Positions 19,642 to 24,942 of a stretch of 32,000 nt of DNA are shown here, one piece after another. The stretch is from Ignicoccus hospitalis KIN4/I (GTDB lineage Archaea; Thermoproteota; Thermoprotei_A; Sulfolobales; Ignicoccaceae), in contig NC_009776.1 of the NCBI RefSeq assembly GCF_000017945.1, forward strand, positions 810,001-842,000, in the 5' to 3' direction. Below the pieces are notes generated by a model. It did no database searches, had not been told where the DNA came from, and saw only the letters and a list, made by a program, of their open reading frames with translations. The first letter of the stretch is position 1; each line of letters begins with the position of its first letter. Both the position numbers and the translations under genes were made by a program.

Positions 19642-20199
19642 TCAAGTTTTAGCGGCTACCACGAGGCCCAGGGAGGTCGGCACTACCAAGTACTTGACCT
19701 TGAGCTCTTTGAGCTTTTCGAAGAACGTCTGAGGAGGTGGCGGAAAGATCGCGTTGTGGAACAACATTACTCCTCCCTTACCCAACTTCTCATAGAGCAA
19801 TTCCAACACGTCTGGATACTGCTCCTTATCCACGTCTACGAACGCGAAGGCCACGGGCTCTTCGAACCCTTTTAAGAAATCCAAGGCGTCCCCGTGCACG
19901 GCCTCGAAACCGGCCTTCTCAGCCAAGCCCTTTAACTCTTCGAAGAATCTTGCCTCCCTCTCCACAGCTATGAGCCTCTTCCCGAAGGCCTTGGCTGCTT
20001 GGAGTATCCACAAAGCCGAGAAGCCTATTCCGGCGCCCAAGTCCAGCGCCACTCCCTCCGCGTTAGCCAGGGCGGCGAACGAGGTCCCTTGCAACACGTA
20101 AGCGTCCTCCAACGGTATGTGGGGTATTCCCAACCTCCGGGACCTCTCCATTACGTACCTATAGAGCTCTTCAAACCCCGTCATCTTGTGATTACCCAT
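19642..20199 (-). CDS. Class I SAM-dependent O-methyltransferase (family 3, YrrM/caffeoyl-CoA-OMT-like)
   Basis: SAM motif I 'VALDLGAGIGFS'. 'FAFVDVDKEQY...GGVMLFHNA' matches the family-3 'D.D K..Y ... DN' pattern. The second ATG at 20184 fits the TATA spacing better than ATG 20199. Confidence 0.7.
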   Translation of the reverse strand: MGNHKMTGFEELYRYVMERSRRLGIPHIPLEDAYVLQGTSFAALANAEGVALDLGAGIGFSALWILQAAKAFGKRLIAVEREARFFEELKGLAEKAGFEAVHGDALDFLKGFEEPVAFAFVDVDKEQYPDVLELLYEKLGKGGVMLFHNAIFPPPPQTFFEKLKELKVKYLVVPTSLGLVVAAKT

Positions 20200-20235: not shown

Positions 20236-22773
20236 TTGCAACAGAAGTTCTTCGTTACCGCAGCTTTCCCCTACGCCCTCCCGCTCGACGTGGACGAGCT
20301 CGTAACTAGGGTGCGCTCCTACCTAGTAGCCGACGTGTACGCGAGGTACCACGAGGCTAGGGGGAGGAGGGTCCTATTTCCCATGGCTTTCCACTACAGC
20401 GGCACGCCCCTCGTTTCCTTCTACGAGAGGGTGAAGTCCCGCTCCCCGGAGGCGCTGAAGTTATTAAAGGAACTGGGCGTCCCCGAGGACGTAAAGAGCC
20501 CTAAGGAACTTGGGGACTTCATGTCCAGAAAGCTGAAGGAGCTCTTCGATTCGTTGAGGTTGAGGATAGATTGGGAGCACTCGTTCACCACGGAGGATCC
20601 CGGATTTAAGTCCTTTGTAAAGTGGATATACTTAAAACTGAAGGAAAAGGGCTTAGTGGTCAAGGGCACTTACCCGGTGCCGTGGGACCCGGTAGAAGAG
20701 GTCCCGGTGAGCTCCCACGACACTGAAGGCTTCAAGCAGATAAAGGTGGGATCCTTCTTCTTGTTAATGTTCGAGTTGAGCCCGGGCTTGTACTTGCCGG
20801 CGGCCGCCCGGCCGGAGACCTCATTCGGTATAACTAACATATGGATCAACCCCAAGGCAGAGTACAAGATAGTGGAGGCCGGCGGCAAGAGGATGATTAT
20901 GTCGTCCAAGGCAGCTTTTAAGATTAGGTTCCAGTTGGACGAGGTGTTTGAAGTAGGCAAGGTAGATCCTGAGGAGATCCTCGGCAAGAGGGCCGTCAAC
21001 CCCATAACTGGGGAGAGCGTGCCCGTGCTGCCCTCAAGCTCGGTGGACCCGGAGAGGGGAAGCGGCGTCGTGGCCTCGAAGCCTGCGCACGACGTGAACG
21101 ACTACCGCGAGGTGCAGAAGCTCTTGAGCAAACCCTTCGTGCTCGAGAGCTTCGACGTTGACCCGAAGGAGCTAGAGCCGAAGGCCGTGATAGAGCTGCC
21201 CGGGTGTGAGGTCCCAGCGGCTTGCTTCGAGGACAACAGGGAGCTCGTGCTCGCGGAAAGGAGCAAGGGCAAGCTCAAACCCGAAGCGGTCTTAAAGGCG
21301 TTGAAGGGCTCGGAGGACCAGTTCCTCAAGGGCTTGCTCTTGACCGTGTTGACCGAGCGACCGGTCGCGGAGGTCTCGGAAGTAATAAAGAGAGCTGCAA
21401 CCGTCGGGGGAGTTGCTTTAGAGTTTTACGACGTATTGAACGGACCGATAAGGTCTAGGTTCGGTAACGAAGTAGTGGTGAAGGTCCTCAAGGACCAGTG
21501 GTTCTTGAACTACGACGACGAGAAGTGGAAGAAGAAGGCGTTAGAGGTTCTTAGCCTGATGGAGGTGGTTCCCAAAGAAGTCTCGAGGTCCTTAGTAACG
21601 GTCATAGAAAGCCTCAAGAAGAGGGCGTTCGCTCTGGCACGGGGCTTGGGCACCCCGTTGCCGTGGGACGAGAACTTAGTAATAGACAGCCTCAGCGACT
21701 CCACCTTGTATTACTTGTTCTACCTATTTGCAGACGTCCTCAAGGACAAAGAAGTGAAACCCGAGGCGTGGGACTACTTGATACTGGGGGAGGGCAAGGC
21801 GGAAGACTTGAAGTACTTGAGGAAGAGGTTCTTGGAGTGGATGCCCCTAGACATGAGGGTTGTCCACGAGGAGCTCGTGAGCAACCACGTCGCCTACATG
21901 CTGTTCCACCACGCGGCCATCTTCGGAACCTCCAACGTTCCGAGGAAGTTGTTGGTAACTGGAGAGGTGGAGGGCGTCAGCGTAAACCCGTTTAAGGAGG
22001 ACCCGCAAGCCTTGAGGTTGTACTTGCTGACCGCGGCGAAGCCCACCTCGCCTCTGAAGTTCTCGGAAAAGGACCTCCGCGAGGTTCAAAAGAGGATAGA
22101 GGAGATACTCAAGGAGTGGCCCTCCGGGGACAGGGAGGCCGGGGAGCTCGAGGAGTGGCTGGAGTCGGCCTTGGCGCTGAGGGTTCAAAGGGCCGAGGCG
22201 GCGCTGGAGCAAGGGGACGTTAGGGAGGCGGCCCTACAAGCCCTGGGCTTCTTGAAGGACTTGAGGAGGTACTACCAGAGGTTGGAGGACAAGGGCTTGC
22301 CGCCCTCCAAGGAAGTGAGGAGGCTGCTGAGGGAGTGGGGCTCGCTGTTGTACCCGTTCGCGCCCTCGCTGGCGGAGGCCCTAGGAGGGGTCCCCCGGTG
22401 GCCTTCCTTGGAGCGGAACTTGGAGGTCGAGGCTAAAGAAGCATACTTCGATATGTTACTAAATGAAATTAAAAAGGTGAAGTCGGACAAAGTCCTAGTA
22501 GAGGTGGCCCCTAGGGAGGCGACTGAGGCGCTCAGGGAAGTGGTGGAGAGCGTGGAGGAGGGGGTCTGGGAAGAGCTGGAGGACGTCCCCCGGCAGCTGT
22601 TGGAGAGGGCCTTGAAGTTGAGCGAGGAGTGGAGGGAGTTGTTGTACTACATAAAGGACGAATACGAGATGGCGAGCTCCCTAAAGGAGGAGTTGGAGAG
22701 GAGGACCGGCAAGGAGGTCCACGTAAAGGTGGGAGACGCACAGCCCTTGTCCCCCAAGGTGAGGGGCCTTTGA
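20236..22773 (+). CDS. Leucyl-tRNA synthetase paralog with degenerate catalytic signatures (probable pseudo-synthetase)
   Basis: 845 aa with an archaeal LeuRS-like layout throughout ('FPY...', 'VLFPMAFHYSGTP', a CP1-type 'ARPETSFGITN', 'DSLSDSTLYY'). At the HIGH position it reads 'LPLDVDEL' (20266-20298). At the KMSKS position it reads 'GEVEGVSVNPF' (21961-21993). Confidence 0.8.
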   Translation: MQQKFFVTAAFPYALPLDVDELVTRVRSYLVADVYARYHEARGRRVLFPMAFHYSGTPLVSFYERVKSRSPEALKLLKELGVPEDVKSPKELGDFMSRKLKELFDSLRLRIDWEHSFTTEDPGFKSFVKWIYLKLKEKGLVVKGTYPVPWDPVEEVPVSSHDTEGFKQIKVGSFFLLMFELSPGLYLPAAARPETSFGITNIWINPKAEYKIVEAGGKRMIMSSKAAFKIRFQLDEVFEVGKVDPEEILGKRAVNPITGESVPVLPSSSVDPERGSGVVASKPAHDVNDYREVQKLLSKPFVLESFDVDPKELEPKAVIELPGCEVPAACFEDNRELVLAERSKGKLKPEAVLKALKGSEDQFLKGLLLTVLTERPVAEVSEVIKRAATVGGVALEFYDVLNGPIRSRFGNEVVVKVLKDQWFLNYDDEKWKKKALEVLSLMEVVPKEVSRSLVTVIESLKKRAFALARGLGTPLPWDENLVIDSLSDSTLYYLFYLFADVLKDKEVKPEAWDYLILGEGKAEDLKYLRKRFLEWMPLDMRVVHEELVSNHVAYMLFHHAAIFGTSNVPRKLLVTGEVEGVSVNPFKEDPQALRLYLLTAAKPTSPLKFSEKDLREVQKRIEEILKEWPSGDREAGELEEWLESALALRVQRAEAALEQGDVREAALQALGFLKDLRRYYQRLEDKGLPPSKEVRRLLREWGSLLYPFAPSLAEALGGVPRWPSLERNLEVEAKEAYFDMLLNEIKKVKSDKVLVEVAPREATEALREVVESVEEGVWEELEDVPRQLLERALKLSEEWRELLYYIKDEYEMASSLKEELERRTGKEVHVKVGDAQPLSPKVRGL

Positions 22774-23144
22774 GTCGCGAGGCGCTCGCGAAGAGGATGG
22801 CTAGGGCCTTCAAGGCCCTCGGCTTCTTCATATTTGAGGCTGACGAGTTGCCGGACGTCAAGGAGGTCCTCGAGGAGGCGAAGCTCCACGAGACTTTGAG
22901 GGTGGTGAAGCTTGGGGACGTAGACCTAAGAATTAAAAACTTGGAATTCGTCACATCGTACTACATGGTTACTTTGGACTTGGAGAGCTGCTTGAACTCT
23001 TGCAAGGACGACGAGTGCTTGAAGGCGTGTGCGGAGGAGAAGAAGGAAGCCGTGGCGAGGGCCTTGTTAGAGGTGAAGGGGCAGAAGCCCCAAGACCTCT
23101 CCTCCCTATTAAAGAGGCTGCGGGAAGGCTCGAGGGGGCAGTGA
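22770..23144 (+). CDS. Hypothetical small protein (about 124 aa) with a C-x3-C-x4-C-x3-C motif
   Basis: TTG 22770 overlaps the LeuRS-like TGA (TTGA); ATG 22797 is an alternative start. The motif 'CLNSCKDDECLKAC' lies at 22989-23030. The track's longer version (from 22629) lies inside the upstream gene. Confidence 0.5.
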   Translation: MSREALAKRMARAFKALGFFIFEADELPDVKEVLEEAKLHETLRVVKLGDVDLRIKNLEFVTSYYMVTLDLESCLNSCKDDECLKACAEEKKEAVARALLEVKGQKPQDLSSLLKRLREGSRGQ

Positions 23145-24043
23145 GGCATTTGCCCGAAGTAGCTGAGGCGCGAGGGTTAACCTTCATCAAGGGTCCGGGT
23201 TTGGACCACGTAATAGAGGAGAAGGGAATCAAGAGGATAGTGGTCTTGGACCCCTATTTCGGTGACATATACGGGGACTACCTCTTCGCTGGGTACGAGG
23301 TGGTCGAGGAGTTCCCCAAGGCTACCTTGCCGGACGTAGTGGGCTTCCACACGGCGGCGGTGCTCCTCAGCAAGAAGCCCGCGGTGGTGGTCTGCGGCTT
23401 CGACCCCTTGAGGTGTGCCGTCGCCCTCGCGGCTTACTTGATAAAGGAAGAGAAGGTAAGTGTGGAGGAAGCGGTGGAGGAGGCGGAGGAGAGGCTCTCC
23501 TCCCTCTACGGCGCGGCGAGGGTGCCACGGGTTCCCAAGAGGGGGCTAGAGGCCTACGCCCGCTTGGCCAGCCTCTTCGGGGACTACTTAGACGCGATTA
23601 TGGCTTTGGGCCTTAACTATGAGTTCGGTAAAGGGGGCCTCCATTGGGGAGAGGCAGTGACTTGGGCGAACTCAATGGAGTACGACGACCCTCTCTTCCT
23701 AGCGACGGCGCTTCACTTCTTGGCCGAGGGCCACGGGAAGAGGGATGAGGTGTTCCAGAGGAGGCTAGAGGTGGTGAGGCGCGAGGCCTTGGAGGAGATG
23801 TTGGGCGAGGAGGGCCTGGAAGCCTTAGAGCTCGTGAGGGAGTTCGCTGAGGGCAAGTTGAGGGAGCTCGAGTTCGTGGAGGCCCTCCAGCCGGGCGAGG
23901 GGTACGTGCGCGACGTGGAGAGGCGCGGGGACGAGGTGGTGGTTAGGTGCATCGGCTGTGAGGCCGTTAAAGGGTTGAACGAACTCCTCCCCCTAGAGAG
24001 GGCCGGCGTGAGGAAGGTCTCCTTCGAGCGGGTGACCGTTTGA
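23141..24043 (+). CDS. Hypothetical protein (300 aa). The N-terminal half resembles a cysteine-phosphatase (PTP/DSP) fold with an atypical C-x5-R loop. The C-terminal half is helical and unassigned.
   Basis: GTG 23141 overlaps the upstream TGA (GTGA), and the gene's own TGA overlaps the TTG of the next gene. 'LPD...(26 aa)...VVVCGFDPLRCAVALAAYLIKEEKVSVEEAVEEAE' mirrors the DSP pattern 'D...VHCxxGxxRS..v..AYLm...s..eA'. However, His and the central Gly are missing and an Asp lies within the loop. Confidence 0.55.
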   Translation: MRHLPEVAEARGLTFIKGPGLDHVIEEKGIKRIVVLDPYFGDIYGDYLFAGYEVVEEFPKATLPDVVGFHTAAVLLSKKPAVVVCGFDPLRCAVALAAYLIKEEKVSVEEAVEEAEERLSSLYGAARVPRVPKRGLEAYARLASLFGDYLDAIMALGLNYEFGKGGLHWGEAVTWANSMEYDDPLFLATALHFLAEGHGKRDEVFQRRLEVVRREALEEMLGEEGLEALELVREFAEGKLRELEFVEALQPGEGYVRDVERRGDEVVVRCIGCEAVKGLNELLPLERAGVRKVSFERVTV

Positions 24044-24942
24044 GGCTGTTAAAGAAGATCGCTAGGGAAGTCTTGGGGGACGAGGAGGTCTGGAGCAGGA
24101 TAGACGTAGTAGGCGACATAGCCCTAATACATAGGAAGTTCAACTATCCAATAGACAAATTGAAGGTCTTGGGGCAAGCCCTCTTAGAGAGGATGCCGGG
24201 AATAAAGTCGGTTTGGGCGGTAGAGCCCGGGACCAAGCCGCCCTACGTCTTGAGGGACTTGATCCACTTGGCAGGCGAGAGGAGGACCGAGACCGTTTAC
24301 AGAGAGCACGGCTGCGAGTACTTAGTGGACTTGAGCAAGGTCTTCTTGGTCCCTCGCCTCTCCGGCGAACACTTGCGCGTGGCGAAGCTCGTAGAGCCTT
24401 GGGAAGTGGTGTTCAACATGTTCGCCGGGGCGGGACTCTTTTCGATTCTCATAGCCAAAATGAAGGGCGCGAAGGTATATTCAGTGGACATCAACGAGTA
24501 CGCATACAAATACATGGTTGAAAACATAAGGAGGAACAAGGTTGAGGGACTCGTGGTGCCCATACTAGGCGACGCGGCCTCGGTGAGCTTGTGGCTGAGG
24601 GGAGGGGTCGACAGAGTCCTCATGCCCCTCCCGGAGCTGGTCCCCGATTATTTGGACTTCGCCTTGCTGGCCTTAAGGTACCCCGGGAAGCTTCACATGT
24701 ACTTACACGTATTAGTTAAGAGAGGGGAAAGGCCTAGGGACGCTGCGAAGAGGGTCGGGGTCCCGCTGGTGGCCAAGAGGTGCTCCTCCTTCGAAGTGGA
24801 GCGCGTCAGGCTGGTCAGAACCGTGGGGCCGAGGGTAGCACAAGTGGTCTTGGACCTCACGTTAGAGAAGTGCGAGCCCTCCCCGAGGCTGGGCAAGCCT
24901 TACAACCCTAAGGAGTTCTTAGAGACCGCTCCCCTCAATTAG
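24040..24942 (+). CDS. trm5: Trm5-family (Met-10+) tRNA methyltransferase, probably tRNA (guanine37-N1)-methyltransferase
   Basis: 'IDVVGDIALI', 'FLVPRLSGEHLRVA' (Trm5-type PRL..E..R), SAM motif 'VFNMFAGAGLFSILIA' and 'DRVLMPLPE' (equivalent of the NLP loop). The Taw2/Taw22 subfamilies cannot be excluded by eye. Confidence 0.8.
   Translation: MRLLKKIAREVLGDEEVWSRIDVVGDIALIHRKFNYPIDKLKVLGQALLERMPGIKSVWAVEPGTKPPYVLRDLIHLAGERRTETVYREHGCEYLVDLSKVFLVPRLSGEHLRVAKLVEPWEVVFNMFAGAGLFSILIAKMKGAKVYSVDINEYAYKYMVENIRRNKVEGLVVPILGDAASVSLWLRGGVDRVLMPLPELVPDYLDFALLALRYPGKLHMYLHVLVKRGERPRDAAKRVGVPLVAKRCSSFEVERVRLVRTVGPRVAQVVLDLTLEKCEPSPRLGKPYNPKEFLETAPLN

What the first reader, a model, noticed from the sequence alone, without database searches (positions are those of the whole stretch)
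20236..22773. LeuRS paralog lacking both class-I signature motifs
In canonical archaeal LeuRS the segment after 'FPY' carries the H(V/I)GH motif. Here it reads FPYALPLDVDELV (20266-20298). Where '(G)KMSKS(K)GN' is expected, the sequence is TGEVEGVSVNPF (21961-21993). The usual 30-40 aa N-terminal extension before 'FPY' is also absent. The rest of the protein, including the CP1-type 'ARPET.FG.TN' block, is retained.

Loss of both ATP-binding signatures predicts no aminoacylation. Duplicated LeuRS genes with a non-canonical copy are known in some Crenarchaeota (Sulfolobus and Aeropyrum have two leuS-type genes). The function of the inactive copy remains open.
Basis: partly seen in the sequence, partly recalled or inferred. 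Interest (0 to 1): 0.6.

Follow-up and report, generated by a model that had tools for sequence, protein, structure and literature searches.

The report
Dead leucyl-tRNA synthetase duplicate in Ignicoccus
Ignicoccus hospitalis, and every sampled member of its genus, keeps and strongly expresses a second full-length leucyl-tRNA synthetase that has lost its ATP-handling motifs and its tRNA-Leu recognition residues, so it cannot charge tRNA and must have an undescribed job.

Summary
Window 20236-22773 (+) encodes an 845-aa archaeal-type LeuRS look-alike, Igni_0938 of Ignicoccus hospitalis. HxGH is replaced by acidic and hydrophobic residues, a 14-15-residue deletion removes the KMSKS loop, and about 35 N-terminal residues are missing. 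A canonical LeuRS (1022 aa, HLGH and KMSKS present) lies elsewhere in the genome.

All six sampled Ignicoccus genomes carry both genes, and no genome outside the genus carries the paralog. It arose by duplication in the Ignicoccus stem. Both copies share the loss of the zinc-knuckle cysteines. A common clade with Sulfolobaceae LeuRS-I is rejected (AU p = 0.005).

The gene is under purifying selection. Published proteomics finds the protein at roughly 0.55-0.7 of the canonical enzyme's level.

Kept: the fold, the five leucine-pocket residues, and the CP1 editing Thr and Asp in 8 of 10 orthologs. Lost: the C-terminal residues that read the tRNA-Leu variable loop. The C-terminal domain is shorter, strongly acidic and well conserved.

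Best reading: a non-aminoacylating pseudo-synthetase with an ATP-independent role, possibly deacylation in trans. The exact activity is unknown. I found no paper on it, and databases mostly call it leucine--tRNA ligase. This scan has noted motif-less LeuRS paralogs in other genomes, often beside odd tRNAs. No such RNA lies next to this gene.

The parts
20236..22773 (+). CDS of the LeuRS paralog (845 aa; Igni_0938/Iho_0938), TTG start
   Evidence: ORF and translation. LeuRS homology. AF2 model with pLDDT 91.9; best fold match is the P. horikoshii LeuRS-tRNA-Leu complex 1wz2_A, TMq 0.77. Protein detected by proteomics.
20266..20304 (+). FPY followed by the ablated HIGH site (FPYALPLDVDELV), with a 3-residue insertion and acidic residues where H-x-G-H should be
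   Evidence: Alignment of 10 paralogs against 40 HIGH-bearing LeuRS (33 canonical plus 7 Sulfolobaceae second copies): no His at either HIGH position in any paralog.
21859..21876 (+). 'VVHEEL', which replaces the conserved 'SGKDL' of the Rossmann fold
21958..21993 (+). Site of the 14-15-residue deletion that removes the KMSKS loop (TGEVEGVSVNPF)
   Evidence: In the AF2 model this is a confident short connector, with pLDDT block means of 95 and 89.
20806..20838 (+). CP1 threonine-rich editing motif (A-RPET-SFGITN). The Thr equivalent to E. coli T252 is kept; the Thr equivalent to T247 is deleted.
   Evidence: Residue equivalences are from PMC7229842.
21082..21105 (+). CP1 editing motif PAHDVNDY, with the Asp equivalent to E. 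coli D345 / human D399 kept
   Evidence: The Asp is kept in 8 of 10 orthologs and replaced by Ser in the I. islandicus clade.
20710..20724 (+). SSHDT: the His equivalent to human LRS His251, part of the leucine pocket
   Evidence: PMC7229842.
21685..21705 (+). DSLSDST: the Leu and Ser equivalent to human LRS Leu594 and Ser597, part of the leucine pocket, invariant in all paralogs
22396..22770 (+). Remodelled C-terminal domain (aa 721-845). It has three deletions and a mean net charge of about -9. The tRNA-Leu variable-loop readers are lost, yet the domain is as conserved within the genus as the canonical CTD.
   Evidence: PhLeuRS reader residues are from PMC4005665.
20209..20215 (.). A/T-rich TATA-like element about 20 nt upstream of the TTG start, in the 36-nt gap to the divergent methyltransferase gene
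   Evidence: Sequence read. Not tested further.

Best explanation
Shown here:
- The gene is a lineage-specific duplicate of the Ignicoccus leucyl-tRNA synthetase, made in the stem of the genus.
- All sampled Ignicoccus genomes keep it under purifying selection.
- In I. hospitalis it is an abundant cytoplasmic protein.

Inferred from sequence:
- It cannot activate leucine or charge tRNA. The HIGH histidines are replaced by acidic or hydrophobic residues, the KMSKS loop is deleted, and the GKD motif is changed.
- It cannot read tRNA-Leu in the canonical archaeal way. The C-terminal residues that read A47c and G47d of the variable loop are gone.
- The five leucine-pocket residues, the overall LeuRS architecture and, in most species, the CP1 hydrolytic pocket are kept.
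- The C-terminal domain has become a shorter, strongly acidic and conserved module.

Proposed mechanism (inference):
- The protein is an ATP-independent pseudo-synthetase that still docks a leucyl or aminoacyl-adenosine end.
- In most species it hydrolyses (mis)acylated tRNA in trans through CP1. P. horikoshii LeuRS without its C-terminal domain can still do this.
- The acidic C-terminal module docks it to a basic partner that is not yet known.

I give about 0.9 to 'functional protein that does not aminoacylate' and about 0.3-0.35 to the specific trans-deacylase activity.
For: Motif loss is present in all 10 orthologs. Canonical-invariant residues are lost at HIGH, KMSKS, GKD and elsewhere in the catalytic core.

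A canonical LeuRS exists in the same genome. Both genes are present in 6 of 6 Ignicoccus genomes.

The family is confined to the genus. Outside the paralog clade (at least 857 bits), the best hit scores 481 bits in the word-indexed search. In the exhaustive search of 1.84 billion representatives, the sole other clade representative scores 878 bits and the next hit 442.

Origin:
- The paralogs are monophyletic and sit next to the Ignicoccus canonical clade.
- Holding the two together is not rejected (AU p = 0.33).
- A clade with LeuRS-I is rejected (p = 0.005).
- Both copies share derived states: WCP to WDP, YCRCG to YSRFG, and PVG to PVS.

Selection: dN is 0.27-0.48, against 0.19-0.31 for the canonical gene in the same genome pairs. 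dS is saturated at 1.3 or more, and no stops or frameshifts occur in 5 genomes.

Expression: Iho_0938 has ASpC 294/321 and RSpC 102/169. Canonical Iho_0150 has ASpC 637/556 and RSpC 182/242 (PMC3149612 Table S1). RNA-library contigs from two studies cover most of the gene.

Retained parts:
- Leucine-pocket equivalents F11, Y13, H161, L486 and S489 are invariant (PMC7229842).
- The CP1 Thr and Asp are kept in 8 of 10 orthologs across a stem of 1.3-1.9 substitutions per site.
- CP1 and the C-terminal domain are nearly as conserved as in the canonical enzyme, while the catalytic core is 2-2.7 times more diverged.
- The full LeuRS fold is predicted with pLDDT 91.9.

PhLeuRS lacking its C-terminal domain keeps editing activity (PMC4005665).

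The genome is highly streamlined and poor in paralogs (PMC2614490), so keeping a 2.5-kb dead copy argues for a function.
Against: No assay exists. Every functional statement rests on sequence.

The I. islandicus clade (P0012, P0013) has Thr to Leu and Asp to Ser in the editing pocket. Editing therefore cannot be the function shared by the whole family.

The Thr equivalent to E. coli T247 is deleted in all paralogs. The window's own protein has no Thr at either position upstream of RPET.

The canonical Ignicoccus LeuRS keeps its own CP1 with the Thr and Asp. There is no obvious need for a helper editor.

Loss of the variable-loop readers and a net charge of about -9 on the C-terminal domain make tRNA binding itself uncertain.

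Retention of five of five leucine-pocket residues is not statistically striking. About 66% of canonical-invariant catalytic-domain residues are retained anyway, and these residues also belong to the structural core.

No conserved gene neighbourhood points to a pathway.
Confidence: 0.5

Rival explanations
1. It is a purely non-catalytic scaffold or regulator. The LeuRS body serves only as a folded platform. The conserved acidic C-terminal module binds a basic partner, such as another translation factor, the canonical LeuRS or a ribosomal protein, possibly in response to leucine bound in the retained pocket. No hydrolytic activity is involved.
For: The acidic C-terminal domain is as conserved as the canonical one (divergence ratio about 1.0). 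Its net charge is -6 to -12 in all 10 orthologs. The editing residues are dispensable in the I. islandicus clade. The protein is abundant, at a level similar to translation factors such as aIF5B. Sulfolobaceae LeuRS-I also has a divergent acidic C-terminal domain and no known catalytic output beyond adenylate formation (PMC9437257). From my own knowledge, archaeal LeuRS is reported as a core of multi-synthetase/EF1A complexes.
Against: The CP1 Thr and Asp and the surrounding GSGVVAS.PAH motif stayed intact in 8 of 10 orthologs while the catalytic site was dismantled. That pattern is easier to explain if the pocket is used. No partner is indicated by gene context.
Confidence: 0.3
2. It is a tRNA-targeting accessory of the downstream Trm5/Taw21-like methyltransferase, with which it forms a tightly packed four-gene unit in I. 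hospitalis.
For: The genes at 20236-24942 overlap start to stop. The last one matches TRM5/TYW2 (PF02475, 1.1e-36) and Taw21 (206 bits, below the 400-bit cut-off). The same order is found in the closest genome, G042.
Against: The linkage is absent in I. pacificus, I. islandicus, G031 and G052. There the methyltransferase and the 300-aa gene lie at distant loci or on other contigs. Protein levels are very unequal: ASpC 294 for the paralog against 16 for the methyltransferase. Taw21-type enzymes act on tRNA-Phe, not tRNA-Leu; this is what the NCBIfam description implies and was not tested.
Confidence: 0.05
3. It is still an active leucyl-tRNA synthetase that uses non-canonical residues for ATP binding.
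For: The leucine pocket is intact. The protein is abundant. Source databases mostly name it leucine--tRNA ligase.
Against: Both HIGH histidines are replaced, mostly by acidic residues. The whole KMSKS loop is deleted. GKD is changed. The C-terminal residues whose loss abolishes aminoacylation in PhLeuRS are gone. A canonical LeuRS is present and more abundant.
Confidence: 0.04
4. It is a decaying pseudogene or an annotation artefact.
For: Catalytic motifs are lost, and amino-acid change is about 1.5 times faster than in the canonical gene.
Against: The frame is intact in 5 genomes with 47-67% amino-acid identity, although synonymous sites are saturated. 215 of 845 positions are invariant among 10 orthologs. 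The AF2 model is confident. Proteomics gives hundreds of spectral counts.
Confidence: 0.01

Closest known systems
LeuRS-I of Sulfolobaceae (Weitzel et al. 2020, J Biol Chem 295:4563, as summarised in PMC9437257)
   Same: It is a second, full-length archaeal-type LeuRS kept beside the working enzyme in a crenarchaeal lineage. It does not aminoacylate, has a divergent acidic C-terminal domain, and its function is unresolved.
   Different: It is an independent duplication: the two Sulfolobaceae copies are sisters (SH-aLRT 96-99), and a joint clade with the Ignicoccus paralog is rejected (AU p = 0.005). The Sulfolobaceae second copies sampled from reference genomes keep HIGH and KMSKS, and the characterised enzyme makes Leu-AMP but has a disrupted CP1; here the editing Asp reads His in those copies. 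The Ignicoccus protein has the reverse pattern: ATP motifs destroyed and CP1 largely intact. Two uncultured members of the LeuRS-I clade (P0127, P0128) have also lost both motifs.
Canonical archaeal LeuRS (Pyrococcus horikoshii LeuRS, PDB 1WKB/1WZ2; TIGR00395)
   Same: It has the same fold and domain order: Rossmann core, CP1, helix bundle and C-terminal domain. Sequence E-values are about 1e-111 to 1e-110, and Foldseek TMq is 0.77. The leucine-pocket residues and most CP1 motifs are the same.
   Different: It has no HIGH, no KMSKS loop and no N-terminal extension. It lacks equivalents of Asp845, Ile849, Ile966 and Glu967, which read the tRNA-Leu variable loop. Its C-terminal domain is acidic. 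It scores below the curated family cut-offs.
LeuRS2 of Halobacteria (Natrialba magadii NmLeuRS2; PMC4005665)
   Same: It is a second LeuRS with strongly reduced aminoacylation, coexisting with an active one.
   Different: NmLeuRS2 is a bacterial-type enzyme with an archaeal C-terminal domain. It still charges tRNA weakly and recognises tRNA-Leu in the archaeal mode. It has a different origin and a different degree of decay.
Crenarchaeal ThrRS-ed, the free-standing editing paralog of threonyl-tRNA synthetase (Korencic et al. 2004; recalled from my own knowledge, not checked here)
   Same: The concept is the same as my proposed mechanism: a synthetase paralog with a degenerate catalytic site that edits mischarged tRNA in trans.
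   Different: It belongs to a different synthetase class and is not homologous. In that system the catalytic partner lacks an editing domain, whereas the canonical Ignicoccus LeuRS keeps CP1. Editing residues are not universal in the Ignicoccus family.

Membership tests
Archaeal leucine--tRNA ligase (TIGR00395 / PRK12300) | Scores at or above the curated family cut-off | tested here: not met
   TIGR00395 scores 452 against 648.5 bits, and PRK12300 scores 593.5 against 677 bits.
Archaeal leucine--tRNA ligase (TIGR00395 / PRK12300) | Class-I HIGH (HxGH) signature | tested here: not met
   No His at either position in any of 10 orthologs. The site reads D/N-x-D/E/N-E/D-L/M with a 3-residue insertion.
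Archaeal leucine--tRNA ligase (TIGR00395 / PRK12300) | KMSKS loop | tested here: not met
   A 14-15-residue deletion removes it in all 10 orthologs.
Archaeal leucine--tRNA ligase (TIGR00395 / PRK12300) | C-terminal domain residues that read A47c/G47d of tRNA-Leu (PhLeuRS Asp845, Ile849, Pro962, Ile964, Ile966, Glu967) | tested here: not met
   The canonical-invariant Asp is variable in the paralogs, and the next 7 residues are deleted. Only a 'PLxPx(V/I)' remnant is semi-conserved, and the terminal residues vary in sequence and length. The residue list is from PMC4005665.
Archaeal leucine--tRNA ligase (TIGR00395 / PRK12300) | CP1 editing domain with a Thr-rich motif and the catalytic Asp | tested here: inconclusive
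   RPET and PAHDxxDY are kept in the window's protein and in 8 of 10 orthologs. The first Thr is deleted in all, and both Thr and Asp are lost in the I. islandicus clade.
Archaeal leucine--tRNA ligase (TIGR00395 / PRK12300) | Overall LeuRS fold and domain order | tested here: met
   The AF2 model has pLDDT 91.9. The top Foldseek hits are 1wz2_A and 1wkb, followed by human LRS.
Archaeal leucine--tRNA ligase (TIGR00395 / PRK12300) | Leucine activation and tRNA-Leu charging activity | not testable with these tools
   This needs ATP-PPi exchange and aminoacylation assays.
Sulfolobaceae LeuRS-I | Descends from the Sulfolobaceae duplication (same clade) | tested here: not met
   The Sulfolobaceae copies are sisters of each other. 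The Ignicoccus paralogs group near the Ignicoccus canonical enzyme. A joint clade is rejected by the AU test (p = 0.005). Zn-site changes are shared with the Ignicoccus canonical enzyme only.
Sulfolobaceae LeuRS-I | Keeps the synthetic site (makes Leu-AMP) but has a disrupted CP1 | tested here: not met
   The pattern here is the opposite: HIGH and KMSKS are lost while the CP1 Asp is kept. The second copies in Sulfolobaceae reference genomes keep HIGH and KMSKS and have Asp replaced by His (PMC9437257).
Sulfolobaceae LeuRS-I | Divergent acidic C-terminal domain | tested here: met
   Mean net charge is -9.3 over 125 aa, against +1.2 in the Ignicoccus canonical enzyme. The second Sulfolobaceae copy has -2.9. 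The resemblance is convergent, not inherited.
Free-standing trans-editing synthetase paralogs (ThrRS-ed-like logic) | Intact hydrolytic editing pocket in all members | tested here: not met
   The pocket is lost in P0012 and P0013, the I. islandicus clade.
Free-standing trans-editing synthetase paralogs (ThrRS-ed-like logic) | The partner synthetase lacks its own editing domain | tested here: not met
   The canonical Ignicoccus LeuRS keeps CP1 with the Thr and Asp. Only RPET is changed, to RAET.

The most novel reading that the evidence does not exclude
The protein keeps the leucine pocket and the acceptor-end pockets but no ATP site. On this reading it takes ready-made Leu-tRNA-Leu (or free leucine) as a ligand or substrate. 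It would then be either an ATP-independent leucyl-tRNA-dependent enzyme or a leucine / Leu-tRNA sensor, with the acidic C-terminal module passing the signal to a partner. That would be a new biochemical use of a full-length class-I synthetase body, evolved within one archaeal genus.
Probability: 0.12. Interest if true: 0.8.

Novelty: new variant of a known kind. Interest (0 to 1): 0.6.

Why it matters
Duplicated synthetases that no longer charge tRNA are a known but poorly understood class, and the role of the one studied LeuRS example (Sulfolobaceae LeuRS-I) is still open. The Ignicoccus protein is a second, independent experiment of nature on the same enzyme, and it decayed in the opposite way. 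The ATP site and the tRNA identity readers are destroyed, while the leucine pocket and editing pocket are largely preserved.

The organism has one of the smallest and most paralog-poor genomes of any free-living cell. Even so, it spends about 0.2% of its genome on this protein and makes more than half as much of it as of the real LeuRS. That makes a non-translational or quality-control role directly testable with recombinant protein.

There is also a practical point. The gene is annotated 'leucyl-tRNA synthetase' or 'leucine--tRNA ligase' in the sources seen here. That label is almost certainly wrong and would mislead metabolic reconstructions.

Tried and rejected
**Gene context.** The four-gene unit with a Trm5/Taw21-like methyltransferase is conserved only in the closest genome. 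The neighbours in I. pacificus and I. islandicus are unrelated (prefoldin, metallophosphoesterase, rubrerythrin-like, GlmS-like, a NiFe-hydrogenase fragment, carbamoyltransferase). I did not use context as functional evidence.

**A private tRNA or tRNA-like RNA next to the gene.** This was a lead from other notes in this scan. ARAGORN and Rfam find none near the paralog in four genomes, and the genome has the five ordinary tRNA-Leu genes at distant loci.

**dN/dS.** Synonymous sites are saturated, with dS at 1.3 or more or undefined. Only dN relative to the canonical gene, plus frame integrity, could be used.

**AU test under the site-heterogeneous model.** With 50 rows it did not finish in three attempts. 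I repeated it with 27 rows under LG+G4. That model is more prone to long-branch effects, so the test is supported by the shared rare changes.

**Subfunctionalisation.** I looked for loss of editing in the canonical enzyme. The canonical Ignicoccus LeuRS keeps its editing residues, and only Pro to Ala in RPET is lineage-specific.

**The Weitzel 2020 paper.** It could not be read by DOI or by PMC id. Its content is cited only through the review PMC9437257.

**RNA-library contigs.** They cover most of the gene at low depth but cannot prove transcription or give its level. Window 22134-22495 was not covered, which proves nothing.

**Literature.** Searches for Ignicoccus with LeuRS or leucyl-tRNA synthetase, and for the locus tag, found no paper on this protein.
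Full report
**What is there.**
The window lies at 810001-842000 of a single 1,297,538-bp contig. That is exactly the published chromosome size of Ignicoccus hospitalis KIN4/I (PMC2614490 Table 1). The closest named relatives of the protein are from I. pacificus and I. islandicus.

The ORF at 20236-22773 (+) encodes 845 aa from a TTG start, with only seven open codons upstream. It is clearly a LeuRS homolog:
- PRK12300 E = 7e-178 and TIGR00395 E = 4e-135, both below the curated cut-offs.
- P. horikoshii LeuRS E of about 1e-111 to 1e-110.
- An AlphaFold2 model with mean pLDDT 91.9, whose best fold match is the PhLeuRS-tRNA-Leu complex 1wz2_A (TMq 0.77).

**Check of the observation.**
I aligned 10 orthologs of this protein with 40 other archaeal LeuRS that all carry HIGH and KMSKS (33 canonical enzymes and 7 Sulfolobaceae second copies).
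- Where those enzymes have H(L/I/V)GH, all 10 orthologs have a 3-residue insertion and residues such as D-V-D-E-L-V. None has a histidine there.
- A 14-15-residue deletion removes 'EGKKMSKSLGNIIP'.
- 'SGKD' reads 'VHE(E/D/G)'.
- The N-terminus starts 10 residues before FPY, against about 45-50 in canonical enzymes. Four orthologs start at the same point.

Their coordinates are slightly off: 20266-20304 and 21958-21993.

A canonical LeuRS of 1022 aa, with HLGH and KMSKS, lies at G000:C1:135275-138343 and is 34% identical to the paralog.

**Distribution and origin.**
All six Ignicoccus-genus genomes in the reference set have both genes. Among 145 other genomes of the same order, only one family (Sulfolobaceae, judging by named hits) regularly has two copies.

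Two searches show that the paralog family has no members outside this small clade.
- In the word-indexed search of 5.8 billion proteins, scores fall from at least 857 bits for clade members to 481 bits for the first canonical LeuRS.
- In the exhaustive phmmer search of 1.84 billion representatives, the only other clade representative scores 878 bits and the next hit scores 442.

In maximum-likelihood trees:
- The paralogs are monophyletic on a long stem of 1.3-1.9 substitutions per site.
- Their internal branching parallels that of the canonical genes.
- They sit in a polytomy with the Ignicoccus canonical clade and one neighbouring lineage.
- Holding paralogs and Ignicoccus canonical genes together is not rejected (AU p = 0.33).
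- Holding the paralogs with the second Sulfolobaceae copy is rejected (p = 0.005).

Rare changes settle the origin. Both Ignicoccus copies, unlike nearly all other archaeal LeuRS, have lost the zinc-knuckle cysteines: WCP became WDP and YCRCG became YSRFG. Both also share PVG to PVS.

The canonical Ignicoccus gene has a genus-specific 50-63-residue insertion that the paralog lacks. So the duplication happened in the Ignicoccus stem, after the zinc site was lost and before that insertion was gained.

**Is it a live gene?**
Yes. Frames are intact in five genomes at 47-67% amino-acid identity, although synonymous sites are saturated (dS at 1.3 or more). dN is only about 1.4-1.6 times that of the essential canonical gene for the same genome pairs. 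215 of 845 positions are invariant among the ten orthologs.

Published shotgun proteomics of I. hospitalis lists Iho_0938 (845 aa, named 'leucyl-tRNA synthetase').
- Iho_0938: adjusted spectral counts 294 (pure culture) and 321 (co-culture); RSpC 102 and 169.
- Canonical Iho_0150: adjusted spectral counts 637 and 556; RSpC 182 and 242 (PMC3149612 Table S1).

The paralog is thus present at roughly 0.55-0.7 of the real enzyme's level. Contigs from RNA libraries of two studies cover most of the gene, which is weak supporting evidence. The genome paper stresses streamlining and a low frequency of paralogs. That makes retention of this 2.5-kb gene notable.

**What is kept and what is lost.**
Of 135 columns that are at least 97% invariant in 33 canonical LeuRS, 127 fall at positions present in the window's protein, and eight more fall in its deletions. 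The numbers kept in at least 8 of 10 paralogs are:

| Region | Kept in at least 8 of 10 paralogs |
|---|---|
| N-terminal Rossmann half | 25 of 38 |
| CP1 | 25 of 32 |
| C-terminal Rossmann half | 32 of 49 |

All six invariant KMSKS-loop columns are deleted.

Divergence within the genus, relative to the canonical gene, is 2-2.7 times higher in the catalytic core. It is about 1.2 times higher in the CP1 centre and about 1.0 in the C-terminal domain.

The five residues that line the leucine pocket of human LRS are Tyr52, Tyr54, His251, Leu594 and Ser597 (PMC7229842). They map to F11, Y13, H161, L486 and S489. All are kept in every paralog, with the same residues as canonical archaeal enzymes.

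In CP1, the Thr equivalent to E. coli T252 and the Asp equivalent to D345 are kept in 8 of 10 orthologs, including the window's protein. The Thr equivalent to T247 is deleted in all. The I. islandicus clade has Thr to Leu and Asp to Ser.

The C-terminal domain has three deletions, one of which removes a basic GGKKK patch. Its net charge is -6 to -12, against about +1 in the canonical enzyme. PhLeuRS reads A47c and G47d of the tRNA-Leu variable loop with Asp845, Ile849 and the terminal Pro-x-Ile-x-Ile-Glu (PMC4005665). The equivalents of these residues are not conserved in the paralogs.

**How it most likely works.**
- *Shown:* the gene is an expressed, selected, genus-specific duplicate.
- *Inferred with high confidence:* the protein does no leucine activation and no tRNA charging. 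The ATP-binding motifs are destroyed, and so are C-terminal residues whose loss abolishes aminoacylation in PhLeuRS.
- *Inferred with modest confidence:* it still docks a leucyl or aminoacyl-adenosine end. In most species it hydrolyses aminoacyl-tRNA in trans through CP1. PhLeuRS without its C-terminal domain retains editing.
- *Speculative:* the conserved acidic C-terminal module suggests a new, probably protein, partner.

The main rival is a purely non-catalytic scaffold or regulator. The loss of editing residues in I. islandicus favours that rival.

An accessory role for the neighbouring Trm5/Taw21-like methyltransferase is unlikely, because the linkage exists only in I. hospitalis and its closest relative. 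No tRNA or tRNA-like RNA accompanies the gene.

**Comparison with what is known.**
The nearest described case is Sulfolobaceae LeuRS-I. It binds tRNA-Leu and forms Leu-AMP but does not aminoacylate. It has a disrupted CP1 and an acidic C-terminal domain, and it is needed for optimal growth (PMC9437257).

My alignment confirms that the second copies in Sulfolobaceae reference genomes keep HIGH and KMSKS and have Asp replaced by His in CP1. The Ignicoccus protein is not a member of that clade and shows the opposite decay pattern. The acidic C-terminal domain is convergent.

Halobacterial LeuRS2 is a bacterial-type enzyme that is still weakly active.

I found no paper on this protein. The proteomics table and UniRef name it as a leucine--tRNA ligase, and NCBI names its orthologs 'hypothetical protein' or 'class I tRNA ligase family protein'.

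Earlier notes of this scan report motif-less LeuRS paralogs in other, unrelated genomes, often next to odd tRNAs. This one differs in being full-length, archaeal-type and without an RNA partner.

**Verdict.**
Interest is moderate to high for synthetase biologists, because it gives a second, independent and oppositely decayed LeuRS duplicate that is abundant and easy to test in vitro.

Noticed in passing
Outside the window: G000:C1:135275-138343 (L002:991-4059); also L036-L039: The canonical LeuRS of all five Ignicoccus genomes examined carries a genus-specific 50-63-residue insertion in the Rossmann fold after 'AMSEKVK'. No other archaeal LeuRS in the alignment has it, and the paralog lacks it too.
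   Followed up: partly
Window 20674-20685 and 21447-21461 (paralog residues 147-150 and 405-409); L002 and L034: Both Ignicoccus LeuRS copies have lost the zinc-knuckle cysteines that are otherwise conserved in archaeal LeuRS: WCP became WDP and YCRCG became YSRFG. One neighbouring lineage (L034, genome G116) shows a similar loss, with YSRWG.
   Followed up: partly
Proteins P0127 (864 aa, unnamed assembly) and P0128 (943 aa, 'Thermoprotei archaeon' MAG): Two uncultured members of the Sulfolobaceae LeuRS-I clade have also lost both HIGH (SVEA, DFYY) and KMSKS. Complete loss of the ATP motifs has therefore happened independently inside that clade as well.
   Followed up: partly
Window 22770-24942 (+): Three genes follow the paralog with overlapping stops and starts. 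They are a 124-aa protein with no family match, a 300-aa protein with no family match (Iho_0940, abundant in proteomics with ASpC 217/69) and a 300-aa Trm5/TYW2-family methyltransferase that best matches Taw21 but falls below its cut-off. This order is kept only in the closest relative, G042.
   Followed up: partly
Window 19642-20199 (-): A divergently transcribed family-3 O-methyltransferase-like gene (PF13578, PF01596) lies only 36 nt from the paralog's start. One A/T-rich element sits between them. RNA-library contigs over this upstream gene show about five times higher word depth than over the paralog, but such depth is not a measure of expression.
   Followed up: no
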